Origin: a virus
Taxonomy: Duplodnaviria; Heunggongvirae; Uroviricota; Caudoviricetes
IMG/VR virus record: IMGVR_UViG_3300015181_000003
Coordinates: 1 to 43,728 of that record
Reading direction: 5' to 3' (one strand)
Length of the DNA: 43,728 nucleotides
Of this stretch, positions 25,270-28,652 are shown one piece after another (the stretch's first letter is position 1; every line of letters starts with the position of its first letter). The notes below the pieces were generated by a model that made no database searches, had not been told where the DNA came from, and saw nothing but the letters and a program-made list of their open reading frames with translations. A program made the position numbers and the translations under genes.

Positions 25270-25295
25270 AAAAGAAAGGGGCGTTAAGCCCCTTC
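25270..25295 (-). terminator. terminator hairpin between convergent genes
   Basis: Stem AAGGGGC / GCCCCTT with loop GTTAA; U-rich on the minus-strand side. Confidence 0.45.
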
Positions 25296-25499
25296 ACCTA
25301 ATGCCAGCCACTTGGCGTCTACTTGCAGCACTTCCGCCAGTTTAAACAGCGTCGCCGGGCGGACGTCCTGAGTTACCCCAAGCGCAAGCTGGTTAATTGC
25401 GCCCTGGGAAACGCCAGCCAGGACCGCCAGACGGCGCTGGGAGATGCCGAGTTCTTTACGGCGTTGTTCTACACGGATGCCTAGTTCAGATGGTTGCAT
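25284..25499 (-). CDS. XRE-family (Cro/CI-type) HTH transcriptional regulator
   Basis: 71 aa with HTH ISQRRLAVLAGVSQGAINQL; AAGGAG SD; transcribed divergently from the 25625 operon across an operator-bearing region. Confidence 0.7.
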   Translation of the reverse strand: MQPSELGIRVEQRRKELGISQRRLAVLAGVSQGAINQLALGVTQDVRPATLFKLAEVLQVDAKWLALGEGA

Positions 25500-25563
25500 G
25501 TCAGTTACTCCTTAGTCAGTTGATATGCGAATAGTACCATATTAATTATTTTAGAAAAGCCCA

Positions 25564-25593
25564 TTGACAACATGAATAGCTAGCTATTATAGT
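25564..25593 (+). promoter_or_regulatory. sigma70-like promoter with embedded palindromic operator
   Basis: TTGACA at 25564..25569, TATAGT at 25588..25593 (18-nt spacer); spacer contains perfect palindrome AATAGCTAGCTATT. Confidence 0.5.
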
Positions 25594-25624
25594 TAGCCCA
25601 TACCAAACGGGAGGAGAGAAACAA

Positions 25625-26140
25625 ATGTTAGACCAATTCTTAAAATTACTGGAACGTTTCGTAGTCGCACATGAACTGATTGCTGCGAATAGTTCGAAAC
25701 AAGTTGTCGTCGCCGAAGTAGATGGGTTAACCGCAGAGACTAAAGCAGACGTAGTTCGTTCCGTTGTAAAAGCTGAAGAAACAAAAGAAATCCCAGTCGA
25801 AGGTGAAGACCCAGTCGAAGGTGAAGACCTTGTTGACACTAAACCGGCAGAAGAAGAGAAGCCTAAACGCAAGCCGCGTAAAGCTAAAGCCGAGGAACCG
25901 ACGCCAGAACCGGAAGAAGAGAAAGAAGAAGTCGATTATCAGTCTCTTCGTGACCAGATTCAGGCTATCGACGATGCGATTAACGAAGGTCCGAGCGATG
26001 CCGCATGCGATGACTCCGATGAACTGCTGGAAGAGTTCACTGGTAAGAAGATGAAGATTGCCGCGATTAAAGACGAAGACCTGGCTGAATACCTGGAACG
26101 CCTGACGGCAATCAAGAACAAGTATTTCGAAGAAGAATAA
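25625..26140 (+). CDS. acidic low-complexity protein (171 aa)
   Basis: GGAGGAG SD; Glu/Asp-rich with PVEGED x2 encoded by an 18-bp tandem repeat at 25793..25828. Confidence 0.5.
   Translation: MLDQFLKLLERFVVAHELIAANSSKQVVVAEVDGLTAETKADVVRSVVKAEETKEIPVEGEDPVEGEDLVDTKPAEEEKPKRKPRKAKAEEPTPEPEEEKEEVDYQSLRDQIQAIDDAINEGPSDAACDDSDELLEEFTGKKMKIAAIKDEDLAEYLERLTAIKNKYFEEE
25793..25828 (+). repeat. 18-bp perfect tandem repeat x2 (CCAGTCGAAGGTGAAGAC)
   Basis: Two exact adjacent copies inside the coding region of 25625..26140. Confidence 0.8.
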
Positions 26141-26183
26141 TTATCCCGCGGCCTTCGGGCCGCTTTAACTGAGGGTCGGAAAT

Positions 26184-26393
26184 ATGATTATTAAAGATTT
26201 CTTTGACGATGCTACCGAAGTTTCCGTTAAAGTTCGGGACACGATGCAAGGTAAACAAAAGTTAGTATCTATTGACTTCAACCCGTTTGACTGCGGGTAT
26301 GATTTGAATTTTATGGAGTATACGCCTGATGTGGCGCGAGAACTTGCTAAAGCGCTTATTGCCGCCGCAGATGAAGCGGAGTATATGTCATGA
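26184..26393 (+). CDS. hypothetical acidic protein (69 aa)
   Basis: Track ORF with GAGGG SD; preceded by a GCGGCC / GGCCGC hairpin. Confidence 0.45.
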   Translation: MIIKDFFDDATEVSVKVRDTMQGKQKLVSIDFNPFDCGYDLNFMEYTPDVARELAKALIAAADEAEYMS

Positions 26394-26662
26394 TTTACCA
26401 ACTCTACCGGGCCGTTGACAGGCGGGATAATACGGAGGCGCTATGGTTATTGCGTGCACCGTCCGGCGCGCACCAGATGGAAGAGATGGCGTACTTAGGA
26501 AAAGTACCGCGGCCTAAAGATATAGGCCGCCACGTGTCGCAGATTAAGCGCACGACTTTCGCCAAACCTGACTTTTATGTCTTCGAGTCAATGTATGGGT
26601 GGGCTATGCATTGTCATCACCAAACGCGACATTTAATTGACCAGTGGGAGAACAGGGTATGA
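26390..26662 (+). CDS. hypothetical protein (90 aa)
   Basis: ATG overlaps the upstream stop; its own stop overlaps the next ATG. Confidence 0.45.
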   Translation: MIYQLYRAVDRRDNTEALWLLRAPSGAHQMEEMAYLGKVPRPKDIGRHVSQIKRTTFAKPDFYVFESMYGWAMHCHHQTRHLIDQWENRV

Positions 26663-27924
26663 TTTTAAAGGAACGCGGCGGCAACAACGATGTGCACGCC
26701 TTACTATCACCGTCGGGTGCTAAGAAGTGGCTAACCTGCGCGGCGTCACTGGCCTGTGAAAAAGATATTCCTAACACGTCAGGTAAGGCCGCAGTGTTAG
26801 GCACAGCTATGCACACTATAGCTGAGGTCCATCTAAACCAGTACATCAAAGGCACTGCGTTACCGTTAGAGCGCGAAGTTGGCGCTTACGTGCTGGATGA
26901 GGGTAAAGGCCAGATTAAGGCGCTAATCAGCCAGATGAAATGTGCGGTGCTGATTACGGCGGACATGATTGAACAGGTGCGCAAGTACACAGACTACTGC
27001 AAAGCGATTATCGATGTAGCGACTTACGCCAAACTCGAGATGCGTGTCAATCTTACTGAGGTATTGCATCCGGGGTACATCCATAGCCCTGGCGGACGGC
27101 AAGAAGAACTACAGACGTTCGGAACGGCTGACCTTGTTGCCGTTCAGGAACTGGCTAACACCGACGAGCACATGCTTATCATCGGCGACCTGAAAACTGG
27201 ACGGCATCGTGTCGAAGCGAAAGAAAACAAACAGCTTATGCTCTACGCTCTCGGTGTTTATCGCCGCCTCAAGAGACGATATAACATCACAGTTGTTCGT
27301 CTGGTAATCTTCCAGCCGTACGCTGGCGGCGCGTCGGAGTGGGACATTTCTGTTGAAGGTCTGGAACTGTTCGCCAAGTTTGCGCAGAAACGAGCACTGT
27401 TAGCTCTTGATGCGTATTTCCGTGGTAAAAAGAACCTGAAAGCGTCGGACTTCAGGCCGTCGGTCGATGGTTGCCAGTGGTGTCGGTTCTCTGAACAATG
27501 CGCCGCGCGTACAAAGACGGTTAATTCTGTACTTGCGGAAGAACTGGAAGACGACTTTGCTCTTGAACTTACGCCTGAGCAACTCGTAGTCGAGTATGAG
27601 AAGCTGCCGCTGTTGCGCCAGCACATCGACAAGGTTGAGAAAGCGATGACCGCCGCGTTGCATTCCGGTAAGAAAGTGCCGGGGTACAAGCTGGTTGGAG
27701 GCCGCCCGGGTAATCGTGCGTGGAAAGATTCCGATGCAGTATTCGAGAAGTACGGCACTATGCTGCAAAAGGTAGTTCTCATGACGCCGACCGAAGCTGT
27801 TAAAGTAATACCGGAAGAAGAACTGAAAGACTTTATTACCCGTAAGCCTGGTGCACCATGCGTTGCAACGACAGACGATAAACGGCCTGAGTGGAATCAG
27901 GTTAGCGAAGAAGATTTAGAATAA
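26659..27924 (+). CDS. PD-(D/E)XK Cas4-like exonuclease (DUF2800-type)
   Basis: N-terminal LSPSGAKKWLTC and C-terminal Cys cluster CQWCRFSEQC (Fe-S-like), recalled as the phage Cas4-like nuclease family signature. Confidence 0.6.
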   Translation: MILKERGGNNDVHALLSPSGAKKWLTCAASLACEKDIPNTSGKAAVLGTAMHTIAEVHLNQYIKGTALPLEREVGAYVLDEGKGQIKALISQMKCAVLITADMIEQVRKYTDYCKAIIDVATYAKLEMRVNLTEVLHPGYIHSPGGRQEELQTFGTADLVAVQELANTDEHMLIIGDLKTGRHRVEAKENKQLMLYALGVYRRLKRRYNITVVRLVIFQPYAGGASEWDISVEGLELFAKFAQKRALLALDAYFRGKKNLKASDFRPSVDGCQWCRFSEQCAARTKTVNSVLAEELEDDFALELTPEQLVVEYEKLPLLRQHIDKVEKAMTAALHSGKKVPGYKLVGGRPGNRAWKDSDAVFEKYGTMLQKVVLMTPTEAVKVIPEEELKDFITRKPGAPCVATTDDKRPEWNQVSEEDLE

Positions 27925-28013: not shown

Positions 28014-28652
28014 ATGGGTATCAAAGTTAAACTGAGCAACGTGCGTATCGGATGGGTAGACGTTTATAAGAAAGCCGCGGACCGTGTAAACAGTCAGGGC
28101 CAACAAGTAGAAGGCCAATACCAGCTTACCGCGTATCTTGATAAAGATGACCCGCAAATTGAGAAAATTGAAGACGCGGTAACTGAGGTTATGACGGAAG
28201 CATTAGGTAGCGCTTCTGCCGCCGAAAAATGGATGTCAAAAAACTTCGGCTTCGGAAACCATGCGGATAAATGCGCATTCCGCGACCTAGCACAGCGCGA
28301 CTCACCGATTGAAGGTCTTGAGGAAGGTTTGTACTTCATGGCTAAGAGCCGTAAGCAACCTATGATTGCAACTTCTGAAGGTGAGGTGCAGTGTCAACGC
28401 GGCGGCCGTGTAGTTAAGGGTCTTACCGAAGCAGGGGATGATGTAGAAGGTAAAGAAGTTTATTCTGGTTGCTACGCTAATATTGTAGTTGATGTCTATT
28501 GGTACTCAACTTATAAAAACCTCGGGGTAGAACTACTCGGTGTTCGCTTTAAGGATGACGGTGAAGCGTTCGGCGGGGCCGGTGCTACCGTAGACCTTAA
28601 TGACCTTGAGGATGATGAACCAGCACCGCGCCGTGAACGCCGTCGCCGCTAA
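28014..28652 (+). CDS. ssDNA-binding protein-like (DUF2815-type)
   Basis: 212 aa following the Cas4-like nuclease gene (a recurring pairing in phage replication modules); acidic C-terminal stretch DLNDLEDDEP. Confidence 0.45.
   Translation: MGIKVKLSNVRIGWVDVYKKAADRVNSQGQQVEGQYQLTAYLDKDDPQIEKIEDAVTEVMTEALGSASAAEKWMSKNFGFGNHADKCAFRDLAQRDSPIEGLEEGLYFMAKSRKQPMIATSEGEVQCQRGGRVVKGLTEAGDDVEGKEVYSGCYANIVVDVYWYSTYKNLGVELLGVRFKDDGEAFGGAGATVDLNDLEDDEPAPRRERRRR

What the first reader, a model, noticed from the sequence alone, without database searches (positions are those of the whole stretch)
25625..26140. Highly acidic early protein with tandem PVEGED repeat
The first gene under the operator-controlled promoter at 25564..25593 encodes a strongly acidic, low-complexity protein with an 18-bp perfect tandem duplication (25793..25828). 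Acidic early proteins in phages are sometimes DNA mimics (anti-restriction); equally it could be a disordered replication accessory factor.
Basis: inference. Interest (0 to 1): 0.4.

Follow-up and report, generated by a model that had tools for sequence, protein, structure and literature searches.

The report
Conserved acidic phage protein, private repeat
This is a real, very acidic, largely disordered protein that heads the DNA-replication and recombination operon of a Kagunavirus-type phage. Its six-residue repeat is a one-off duplication in a floppy linker, and phages carrying the gene are still fully cut by restriction enzymes, so it is probably a replication helper rather than an anti-restriction DNA mimic.

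Summary
ORF 25625..26140 (+) encodes a 171-aa protein (pI 4.4, net charge -24), the most acidic ORF of at least 100 aa in the window. It carries a perfect in-frame 18-bp tandem duplication at 25793..25828 (PVEGED x2).

The window is a Kagunavirus-like siphophage. The protein belongs to PHROG 3127, function unknown, labelled "13.88 kDa late protein" in GenBank. It is found in essentially all Guernseyvirinae and also in Dhillonvirus, always in the operon that continues to a DUF2800 exonuclease, a gp2.5-like SSB and PolA, and usually as its first gene.

The architecture is a very conserved N-terminal helix, a variable disordered linker and a conserved acidic C-terminal three-helix bundle. The duplication lies in the linker and was found in no relative.

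There is no sequence or fold similarity to Ocr, Gam or gp5.9. Kagunavirus Bas70, which carries a 77%-identical homologue, plates at about 1e-5 on EcoKI. An Ocr-like anti-restriction role is therefore not supported.

My best guess, with modest confidence, is a replisome or recombination adaptor. Its linker shares an acidic-run/P-K/R motif with the tail of the phage's own SSB. It is an ordinary member of an uncharacterised family.

The parts
25284..25499 (-). Divergent 71-aa HTH_3 (Cro/CI-type) regulator gene. It is the presumed repressor acting on the intergenic operators.
   Evidence: Pfam HTH_3 at E 1e-12 and PHROG transcriptional repressor families. An HTH gene sits divergent from the acidic gene in Jersey-type, TS6-type and metagenomic relatives.
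25529..25542 (.). Second, imperfect operator-like inverted repeat, AATAGTACCATATT.
   Evidence: Read from the sequence. Conserved in EC3-1 and Bas74. Operator function is inferred.
25564..25593 (+). Sigma-70-type promoter TTGACA-N18-TATAGT driving the acidic gene.
   Evidence: 11 of 12 consensus matches. The equivalent promoter is kept in six relatives.
25575..25588 (.). Perfect 14-bp palindrome AATAGCTAGCTATT (half-sites AATAG/CTATT) in the promoter spacer, overlapping the first base of the -10 hexamer.
   Evidence: Palindrome scan. The half-sites are kept in Bas74 and EC3-1 with a different centre. Repressor binding is inferred.
25609..25616 (+). Shine-Dalgarno sequence GGGAGGAG, 8 nt upstream of the ATG.
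   Evidence: Sequence.
25625..26140 (+). CDS of the 171-aa acidic protein, a member of PHROG 3127 (the '13.88 kDa late protein' family).
   Evidence: ORF list. phrog_3127 at E 1.3e-66 over the full length. 1906 homologues in the protein collection. 484 phage records. dN/dS below 1.
25625..25696 (+). Residues 1-24, MLDQFLKLLERFVVAHELIAANSS. This is the N-terminal amphipathic helix and the most conserved segment of the protein.
   Evidence: AF2 helix 2-23, pLDDT about 80. R11, A15, E17 and A20 are invariant. It is 87.5% identical in relatives whose helicase-primase is 27% identical. Synonymous sites vary, so the constraint is on the peptide.
25697..25930 (+). Residues 25-102: a variable, predicted-disordered, E/K/P-rich linker.
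   Evidence: pLDDT below 50 for most of residues 49-100. All indels among relatives fall here. dN/dS is 0.27-0.33. Linker length ranges from about 30 to about 100 aa in the family.
25793..25828 (+). Perfect 18-bp tandem duplication encoding PVEGED-PVEGED (residues 57-68).
   Evidence: TRF score 76. One copy in 105 of the 120 nearest homologues and two copies in none. All best phage-DNA matches are 18 nt shorter. The exact protein is absent from about 15 billion proteins.
25850..25888 (+). Residues 76-88, EEEKPKRKPRKAK. An acidic run followed by a P-K/R basic patch, the conserved linear motif of the linker.
   Evidence: Conserved as EEKPKRKPR in Guernseyvirinae. A motif of this form occurs elsewhere in the genome only in the SSB tail. 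The motif was defined post hoc.
25931..26137 (+). Residues 103-171: an acidic C-terminal three-helix bundle, net charge -12.
   Evidence: AF2 helices 105-121, 125-139 and 150-169, pLDDT 80-90. Reproduced on a 123-aa family member. dN/dS is 0.02-0.06. Conserved acidic positions GDSD..D.FDDLL.EY...DEDV.
26148..26163 (+). Hairpin GCGGCC-TTCG-GGCCGC, followed by TTTAAC, in a 43-nt spacer after the stop codon. Possibly a weak terminator or an RNA stabiliser.
   Evidence: The hairpin (26148..26163) and the downstream spacer through the SD are invariant in the window, Bas74, EC3-1 and Jersey, although the next gene differs; three spacer positions vary. The fold z-score is only -1.5. Function is inferred.
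26390..26662 (+). Downstream 90-aa ORF of the same operon (phrog_4965), homologue of HK578 gp43.
   Evidence: phrog_4965 at E 4e-45. blastp to HK578 gp43 gives 32% identity, E 8e-10. A gp43 frameshift lets HK578 escape P2 OLD (bioRxiv 10.64898/2026.07.10.737580).
26644..27924 (+). DUF2800 / PD-(D/E)XK exonuclease of the same operon.
   Evidence: Pfam DUF2800 at E 5e-64; phrog_69 exonuclease.
28014..28652 (+). Gp2.5/Enc34-type SSB and annealing protein. Its C-terminal tail, EDDEPAPRRERRRR, shares the linker motif.
   Evidence: Pfam Enc34_ssDNA-bd; phrog_112. Motif scan. Tail comparison across seven phages.

Best explanation
The gene encodes a core, modular accessory protein of the phage's replication and recombination operon. 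It is not an anti-restriction factor.

It has three parts.
- A 24-residue amphipathic N-terminal helix under very strong peptide-level constraint, probably a docking or oligomerisation element.
- A long, intrinsically disordered, charge-patterned linker. It evolves by indels and tandem duplications and carries an acidic-run/P-K/R linear motif.
- A small acidic three-helix bundle.

I infer that it works as a tether or hub in the replisome and recombination machinery. It would act in the manner of the acidic C-terminal tails of T7-type SSBs. Its acidic segments would occupy basic DNA-binding surfaces of the cognate gp2.5-like SSB/annealase, the polymerase or the exonuclease. The N-terminal helix would anchor it to a conserved partner.

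The PVEGED duplication is a recent, private, in-frame slippage event in the flexible linker. It adds six residues and three negative charges and most likely has little functional effect.

What is shown: the architecture, conservation, synteny, uniqueness of the duplication, lack of similarity to known DNA mimics, and the restriction sensitivity of phages that carry homologues.

What is inferred: the partners and the hub mechanism.
For: Core gene and synteny:
- 484 phage records carry the gene, against 421 that carry a helicase-primase at least 60% identical.
- In Kagunavirus, Jerseyvirus, TS6/GRNsp27-type phages, metagenomic relatives and Dhillonvirus it follows the divergent HTH gene and precedes small ORFs, the DUF2800 exonuclease, the gp2.5-like SSB and PolA. 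It is usually the first gene of that operon.

Architecture:
- AF2 gives helix 2-23, a disordered stretch of roughly 24-104, and a three-helix bundle at 105-169. This was reproduced on a 123-aa family member.
- dN/dS is 0.06-0.24 for the N-terminal helix, 0.27-0.33 for the linker and 0.02-0.06 for the C-terminal domain.
- The N-terminal helix is 87.5% identical where other module proteins are 27-66% identical. Synonymous sites vary there.

Linker plasticity across the family:
- Indels.
- A longer internal duplication in P0064.
- A duplicated C-terminal domain in P0132 and P0143.
- EAPAK[TS]KKAPAKGK[AG]KK repeats in Dhillonvirus 'rolling' gp21, against one copy in HK578 gp44.

Link to the SSB:
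- The motif (three acidic residues, then P[AKRH][KR], then at least two more K/R) occurs in only two of 144-165 six-frame ORFs in each of three genomes. Those two are this protein and the tail of the gp2.5-like SSB.
- Acidic tails of T7-type SSBs bind the OB-fold groove in trans and contact the polymerase and helicase (PMC5686142).

All family members are acidic, with pI 4.4-5.2.
Against: - There is no direct functional evidence and no homology to any characterised replication protein. Pfam, NCBIfam, PDB sequence and profile searches, and Foldseek all gave nothing.
- The shared-motif test was defined after I had seen the sequences, and both regions are low-complexity charged segments, so chance resemblance is plausible.
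- N-terminal helix divergence does not track the divergence of any one module protein, so no partner can be named.
- Strong conservation together with a strong promoter and SD would also fit a stoichiometric inhibitor of a host protein.
- AF2 confidence is moderate overall (pTM 0.38-0.42).
Confidence: 0.42

Rival explanations
1. An Ocr/ArdA-like DNA mimic that blocks type I (or other) restriction-modification enzymes early in infection.
For: Extreme acidity. Expression from a strong sigma-70 promoter as the first gene of its operon. An acidic helical C-terminal domain with conserved carboxylates.
Against: - Kagunavirus Bas70 carries a full-length homologue at 77% identity (H44). Its efficiency of plating is 1.3e-5 and 5e-6 on EcoKI (5 sites), 1e-3 and 4e-4 on EcoCFT_I, and 1e-5 to 1e-6 on EcoRI, EcoRV, EcoCFT_II and EcoP1. 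The authors describe the genus as highly sensitive to RM systems.
- hhalign probability to Ocr is 0.5%.
- Foldseek finds no DNA-mimic fold.
- About half of the protein is disordered rather than a rigid charge array.
- Core, syntenic conservation is atypical for anti-restriction accessory genes.
Confidence: 0.04
2. An acidic competitor or decoy for another host DNA-binding protein. Candidates are RecBCD (functionally like lambda Gam or T7 gp5.9, which also sit next to the phage exonuclease and annealase genes), a nucleoid protein such as H-NS, or a non-RM defence system. The conserved N-terminal helix would bind the host target.
For: - Its position upstream of the exonuclease and annealase parallels gam-bet-exo and T7 5.9-6 (established knowledge; annotations).
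- The N-terminal helix is far more conserved than any phage replication protein in the module. That fits a slowly evolving host target.
- Kagunavirus and Dhillonvirus phages are OLD-sensitive, and OLD can be triggered by RecBCD inhibitors.
- The window has only one Chi site.
Against: - No similarity to Gam or gp5.9.
- OLD escape mutations in Dhillonvirus HK578 map to gp43 (the neighbouring orf90 homologue), to the helicase-primase and to the gp45 promoter. None maps to the homologue gp44.
- OLD can also fire without RecBCD inhibition.
- No plating or binding data exist for this protein.
Confidence: 0.25
3. A transcription factor or modulator of host RNA polymerase (an appropriator or anti-sigma-like protein) that helps switch from early to middle or late phage transcription.
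For: - The phage has no RNA polymerase of its own in the annotated relatives, so it must redirect the host enzyme.
- Small acidic helical proteins such as T4 AsiA and sigma region 1.1 do this (established knowledge).
- The historic label is 'late protein' in MB78.
Against: No similarity to any known RNAP-binding phage protein. Its location inside the replication and recombination operon does not point to transcription. There is no expression or binding evidence.
Confidence: 0.08
4. The repeat is functionally selected, with copy number tuning activity, or the duplication is a sequencing or assembly artefact.
For: - The duplicated unit overlaps a conserved linear motif, (I/L)PVEGED(I/V/L)(I/V)D(T/A)KP, seen even in members about 40% identical.
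- Linkers of relatives carry other repeats.
Against: - Two copies are seen in none of the 120 nearest homologues, in no phage-database genome among the best matches, and nowhere among about 15 billion proteins.
- A single genome cannot show selection.
- The PVEGED motif is absent from many family members.
- An artefact cannot be tested without reads.
Confidence: 0.05

Closest known systems
PHROG 3127, the '13.88 kDa late protein' of Salmonella phage MB78 (UniProt Q9T1Z8), and its homologues in Guernseyvirinae and Dhillonvirus (e.g. HK578 gp44, Jersey gp49, Bas74_0047)
   Same: Full-length HMM match at E 1.3e-66. Same architecture and same genomic position. 75-93% identity to the nearest members.
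   Different: Only this allele has two PVEGED units. The family has no assigned function. The MB78 entry is an N-terminally truncated 123-aa ORF call, and I could not trace any evidence behind its 'late' label.
T7 Ocr (gp0.3), the archetypal acidic DNA-mimic anti-restriction protein
   Same: Small, very acidic, helical in part, and expressed from a host-RNAP promoter.
   Different: No homology (hhalign probability 0.5%). No structural match. Half of this protein is disordered. Phages carrying it are strongly restricted by type I systems, unlike T7.
Lambda Gam and T7 gp5.9, the RecBCD inhibitors encoded next to the phage exonuclease and annealase
   Same: Acidic, helical and possibly oligomeric through a helix. 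Located upstream of the phage recombination nuclease and annealing protein.
   Different: No sequence similarity. Different size and architecture. The OLD-escape mutation in HK578 lies in the neighbouring gene, not in this family.
Acidic C-terminal tails of T7 gp2.5 / Enc34 ORF6-type SSBs (and the E. coli SSB C-terminal tail)
   Same: Disordered acidic segments that bind basic DNA-binding grooves and replisome partners (PMC5686142). The linker motif here resembles the tail of the phage's own gp2.5-like SSB.
   Different: Here the acidic segment is a separate polypeptide with its own two folded modules, not an appendage of an OB fold. Binding to SSB, polymerase or nuclease is hypothetical.

Membership tests
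PHROG 3127 (uncharacterised phage protein family) | Full-length match to the family HMM | tested here: met
   E 1.3e-66, residues 1-171 on profile positions 1-177 of 178. Dhillonvirus 'rolling' gp21 also matches at E 1.2e-49.
PHROG 3127 (uncharacterised phage protein family) | Conserved position: downstream of the divergent HTH gene, at or near the head of the operon leading to the DUF2800 exonuclease, gp2.5-like SSB and PolA | tested here: met
   Window gene order. Same order in L001-L006, L012, L017 and L018.
Ocr-type DNA-mimic anti-restriction proteins | Sequence or profile homology to Ocr | tested here: not met
   hhalign probability 0.5%, E 0.11. No Pfam or PADLOC hit.
Ocr-type DNA-mimic anti-restriction proteins | A rigid folded surface that mimics B-DNA, i.e. 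structural similarity to Ocr, ArdA or other solved mimics | tested here: not met
   Foldseek against the PDB on two models found no hit with E below 0.9, only generic three-helix bundles. Roughly residues 24-104 are predicted disordered.
Ocr-type DNA-mimic anti-restriction proteins | Protects the phage from type I restriction | tested here: not met
   Indirect, from the literature. Bas70, which carries a 77%-identical homologue, has EOP about 1e-5 on EcoKI and about 1e-3 on EcoCFT_I. No knockout or in vitro test exists.
Lambda Gam / T7 gp5.9 RecBCD inhibitors | Homology to Gam or gp5.9 | tested here: not met
   hhalign probability 0.1-0.2%.
Lambda Gam / T7 gp5.9 RecBCD inhibitors | Inhibits RecBCD, or triggers RecBCD-guard systems such as OLD or retron Ec48 | not testable with these tools
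   Only circumstantial. HK578 OLD escapers map to gp43, gp46 and the gp45 promoter, not to the homologue gp44.
Replisome accessory proteins acting like SSB acidic tails (a functional class, not a homology family) | Physical interaction with the cognate SSB, polymerase, helicase or exonuclease | not testable with these tools
   Supported only by synteny and a post-hoc shared motif.
Tandem-repeat (copy-number-variable) proteins | Repeat copy number varies among relatives at this site | tested here: not met
   105 of the 120 nearest homologues have one PVEGED unit, 15 have none and none has two. The DNA of the best phage matches is 18 nt shorter. Other linker repeats do vary in Dhillonvirus.

The most novel reading that the evidence does not exclude
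PHROG 3127 proteins may be a new class of free-standing 'SSB-tail-like' hub or decoy.

In this reading a near-invariant N-terminal helix locks onto a conserved partner, either host or phage. A charge-patterned disordered linker and an acidic three-helix bundle then compete with DNA for a basic groove. That groove could belong to the phage's own gp2.5-like SSB/annealase or to a host enzyme such as RecBCD.

The protein would thereby control when phage recombination-dependent replication starts. This would be a previously undescribed regulator, core to Guernseyvirinae and Dhillonvirus, two groups widely used as therapeutic phages.
Probability: 0.2. Interest if true: 0.55.

Novelty: new member of a known kind. 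Interest (0 to 1): 0.3.

Why it matters
Guernseyvirinae (Kagunavirus, Jerseyvirus) and Dhillonvirus phages are among the most frequently isolated E. coli and Salmonella phages and are used in therapy and biocontrol. Their replication and recombination operon opens with this abundant-looking, strictly conserved protein, whose function is unknown.

Knowing what it binds would clarify how these host-RNAP-dependent siphophages start replication or deal with host nucleases. For this specific finding the practical message is negative:
- The repeat is a private duplication in a disordered linker.
- The attractive 'DNA-mimic anti-restriction' idea is contradicted by published restriction phenotypes.

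Tried and rejected
- **Family and structure databases.** Pfam, NCBIfam and PADLOC scans, and PDB sequence and profile searches, gave no meaningful hit.
- **Fold search.** Foldseek of two AF2 models against the PDB gave only generic three-helix bundles at E about 1. Against BFVD it found only family members.
- **Known mimics.** Profile comparisons with Ocr, gp5.9 and Gam were negative.
- **Domain fusions.** A profile search with the C-terminal domain alone returned only family members and fragments, with no fusion to a known domain. An exhaustive HMMER search of 1.84 billion representatives found just 30 clusters.
- **Repeat in other genomes.** An IMG/VR scan for a doubled PVEGED motif hit only an unrelated protein with P[AV][ED]GED repeats.
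- **Literature.** Nothing is published on phrog_3127. MB78 papers are not in the library. Papers that mention both Guernseyvirinae and 'DNA mimic' refer to T7-like Ocr, not to this gene. The vB_Eco_K1B4 transcriptome paper does not state the temporal class of the homologue, gene 003.
- **RNA or DNA element.** I tested whether N-terminal helix conservation reflects an RNA or DNA element. It does not, because synonymous sites vary.
- **Partner by co-variation.** I tried to infer the N-terminal helix's partner from co-variation with module proteins. No pattern emerged.
- **'Nuclease inhibitor gamma' label.** This label on Dhillonvirus 'rolling' gp22 looked like a lead, but the protein is an HTH protein, not Gam.
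Full report
**Observation**

The ORF at 25625..26140 (+) is real. It encodes 171 aa with pI 4.38, 48 acidic against 24 basic residues, and net charge -24. Its charge density is twice that of the next most acidic ORF of at least 100 aa in the window.

The 18-bp unit CCAGTCGAAGGTGAAGAC is repeated in perfect tandem at 25793..25828. TRF scores it 76, the best array in the window. About 6e-7 such events are expected by chance. The repeat is in frame and gives PVEGED-PVEGED at residues 57-68.

Upstream lie three regulatory elements:
- an 11-of-12 sigma-70 promoter, TTGACA-N18-TATAGT, at 25564..25593;
- a perfect 14-bp palindrome, AATAGCTAGCTATT, at 25575..25588 in the promoter spacer, reaching the first base of the -10 hexamer;
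- a strong Shine-Dalgarno sequence, GGGAGGAG, at 25609..25616.

A 71-aa HTH_3 regulator gene is transcribed divergently at 25284..25499. Only the word 'early' is an inference.

**Identity of the window and the family**

The window is a Kagunavirus-like siphophage genome of the Guernseyvirinae, about 90% identical to known Escherichia phages.

The protein is a full-length member of PHROG 3127, function unknown (E 1.3e-66). It has no Pfam, NCBIfam, PADLOC or PDB sequence match.

In GenBank, relatives are 'hypothetical protein' or '13.88 kDa late protein'. That label propagated from an N-terminally truncated 123-aa ORF call in Salmonella phage MB78, UniProt Q9T1Z8. I could not find the evidence behind 'late'. 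From memory only, and unverified, the MB78 laboratory published on late proteins and frameshifting around 2000. That is a lead, not evidence.

The family is narrow but abundant:
- 1906 proteins in the 5.8-billion-cluster collection;
- only 30 clusters at 50% identity among 1.84 billion representatives;
- 484 phage records.

By comparison, 421 records carry a helicase-primase at least 60% identical, so this is a core gene of the subfamily.

The family also occurs in Dhillonvirus. 'Rolling' gp21 matches phrog_3127 at E 1e-49 with hhalign probability 99.6%. HK578 gp44 is another member.

Wherever I looked, the gene follows the divergent HTH gene in the operon that continues through small variable ORFs to a DUF2800 PD-(D/E)XK exonuclease, a gp2.5/Enc34-type SSB-annealase and PolA. 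It is the first gene of that operon in most of these phages. EC3-1 and TS6 have one small ORF inserted ahead of it.

**Anatomy**

Alignment of diverse members (A1) and AF2 (repeated on a 123-aa member) agree on three parts.

1. *Residues 1-24, an amphipathic helix, MLxKFLxLLERFVVAHELIAANS.*
   - pLDDT is about 80, and R11, A15, E17 and A20 are invariant.
   - It is 87.5% identical in relatives whose helicase-primase is 27%, exonuclease 50%, SSB 41-63% and PolA 64-66% identical, and whose own C-terminal domain is 33-37% identical.
   - Synonymous sites vary, so the constraint is on the peptide, not on an RNA or DNA element.
2. *Residues 25-102, a linker.*
   - It is predicted to be disordered, with pLDDT below 50.
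   - It contains all the indels and shows relaxed dN/dS of 0.27-0.33.
   - Its length ranges from about 30 aa in P0151 to about 100 aa.
   - It carries a conserved acidic-run/basic patch, EEEKPKRKPRKAK (residues 76-88).
   - In many members it also carries the motif (I/L)PVEGED(I/V/L)(I/V)D(T/A)KP, which the duplicated unit overlaps.
3. *Residues 103-171, an acidic three-helix bundle.*
   - Net charge is -12, pLDDT is 80-90 and dN/dS is 0.02-0.06.
   - Acidic positions are conserved.

All family members are acidic, with pI 4.4-5.2.

**The repeat**

The duplication is private to this genome.
- Of the 120 nearest homologues, 105 have one PVEGED unit and none has two.
- The nearest proteins are 165 aa and 92-93% identical, that is, the window protein minus six residues.
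- Every best DNA match in the phage collection spans 58 nt for 76 query nt.
- The exact protein is absent from about 15 billion proteins.
- IMG/VR hits to a doubled motif are an unrelated protein.

The linker is nonetheless generally prone to duplication:
- P0064 has a longer internal duplication;
- P0132 and P0143 duplicate the C-terminal domain;
- 'rolling' gp21 has two to three EAPAK[TS]KKAPAKGK[AG]KK units, where HK578 gp44 has one.

So the PVEGED doubling is best read as a recent slippage event in a tolerant disordered segment. An assembly artefact cannot be excluded without reads.

**Is it a DNA-mimic anti-restriction protein?**

The evidence says no, at least not in the Ocr sense.
- There is no profile similarity to Ocr, gp5.9 or Gam.
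- There is no fold match to any solved mimic.
- About half of the chain is disordered.
- Most tellingly, the BASEL extension paper (PMC11990801) reports that Kagunavirus isolates show 'a high sensitivity to RM systems'.

The raw data of that paper cover Bas70, which encodes a full-length homologue at 77% identity (H44). They give the following efficiencies of plating:

| System | EOP |
|---|---|
| EcoKI (5 sites) | 1.3e-5 and 5e-6 |
| EcoCFT_I | 1e-3 and 4e-4 |
| EcoRI | 1.5e-5 |
| EcoRV | 8e-6 |
| EcoCFT_II | 1.5e-6 |
| EcoP1 | 5e-5 |

The window itself also has 5 EcoKI sites. A phage with an effective Ocr-like protein would plate at about 1.

**What it more likely does**

Three things point to a role inside the replication and recombination machinery: the gene is core, it is strictly syntenic with the exonuclease/SSB/polymerase genes, and it is built as two small constrained modules on a flexible tether.

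One further hint supports this. A motif of three acidic residues, then P[AKRH][KR], then at least two more K/R occurs in only two of 144-165 six-frame ORFs in each of the window, Bas74 and HK578. Those two are this protein's linker and the C-terminal tail of the gp2.5-like SSB (tails compared). I defined the motif after seeing the sequences, and both regions are low-complexity, so I treat this as suggestive only.

In T7-type SSBs the acidic tail binds the OB-fold groove in trans and contacts the polymerase and helicase (PMC5686142). I therefore propose, with confidence about 0.4, that the protein is a free-standing hub or decoy that works like such tails.

The main rival, at about 0.25, is an inhibitor of a host DNA-binding protein such as RecBCD.
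- For it: the gene's position parallels gam-bet-exo and T7 5.9-6. The N-terminal helix is more conserved than any phage partner. These phage groups are OLD-sensitive.
- Against it: in Dhillonvirus HK578 the OLD-escape mutations map to gp43 (homologue of the window's orf90 at 26390..26662), to the helicase-primase and to the gp45 promoter region. None maps to gp44, the homologue of this protein.

**Comparison and verdict**

This is an ordinary new member of an already catalogued but uncharacterised phage family. It carries a private six-residue duplication.

Interest is modest. The repeat is trivial. The family itself is a worthwhile experimental target because it is core, looks abundantly expressed, and has a near-invariant N-terminal helix in widely used phages.

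Noticed in passing
window 26390..26662 (+): The 90-aa ORF two genes downstream (phrog_4965) is homologous to HK578 gp43 (32% identity, E 8e-10). It is mislabelled 'phosphoheptose isomerase' in EC3-1. A 2026 preprint reports that a frameshift in gp43 lets HK578 escape P2 OLD. That makes this ORF a candidate OLD trigger or recombination/RecBCD-related factor in Kagunavirus too.
   Followed up: partly
window 26141..26183: The 43-nt spacer after the acidic gene contains the hairpin GCGGCC-TTCG-GGCCGC, then TTTAAC and the next gene's SD. The hairpin and the spacer downstream of it through the SD are invariant in the window, Bas74, EC3-1 and Jersey, even though the following gene differs (orf69, the orf90 homologue, or NinX); three spacer positions vary. 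It may be a weak terminator or RNA stabiliser and a junction for gene insertion. The fold z-score is only -1.5.
   Followed up: partly
window 25529..25542 and 25575..25588: There are two operator-like inverted repeats of the form AATAG-N4-(C/A)TATT between the divergent HTH gene and the acidic gene. The second is a perfect 14-bp palindrome in the promoter spacer, overlapping the first base of the -10 hexamer. In Bas74 and EC3-1 the half-sites are kept but the centre differs.
   Followed up: partly
window 28014..28652 (+); L017 784..1563; L018 32007..32744: The gp2.5-like SSB ends in an acidic-then-basic tail, EDDEPAPRRERRRR. In Dhillonvirus and TS6-type relatives the tail is expanded to 2-4 repeats of an acidic run plus (A/K/R/S)PRK plus a basic run. 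This is unlike the purely acidic tail of T7 gp2.5.
   Followed up: partly
window 25625..27924 compared with L004 (Jersey): There is a mosaic boundary inside the acidic gene's linker. Against Jersey, dS is 1.38 in the linker but 0.32 in the C-terminal domain. The block from the C-terminal domain through orf90 to the exonuclease is 90-99% identical at the protein level, whereas the helicase-primase is 64% and the SSB 48% identical. This suggests a recent recombinational exchange between Kagunavirus and Jerseyvirus lineages.
   Followed up: partly
L001 3230..3406 (EC3-1 gp6) and L012 3778..3948 (TS6 gp07): In some relatives a small extra ORF sits between the promoter and SD and the acidic gene. 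The acidic gene is therefore not always the first cistron.
   Followed up: no
L017 4593..4922 ('rolling' gp22); L018 35575..36003 (HK578 gp45): The Dhillonvirus gene at the position of the HTH repressor is annotated 'DNA recombination nuclease inhibitor gamma' or 'transposase'. It is actually an HTH_23 / Sigma70_r4-like DNA-binding protein, so the label appears to be an annotation error.
   Followed up: yes
L008, L009, L010 (IMG/VR contigs): An unrelated long phage protein carries seven tandem P[AV][ED]GED units and KPKGGE repeats. This is convergent low-complexity sequence, not homology.
   Followed up: partly
L002 2567..2925 (Bas74): In the Bas74 GenBank record the divergent HTH repressor gene is not annotated. 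Only a 96-bp ORF on the other strand is listed, although the DNA is about 88% identical to the window there. It is probably a missed gene call.
   Followed up: no
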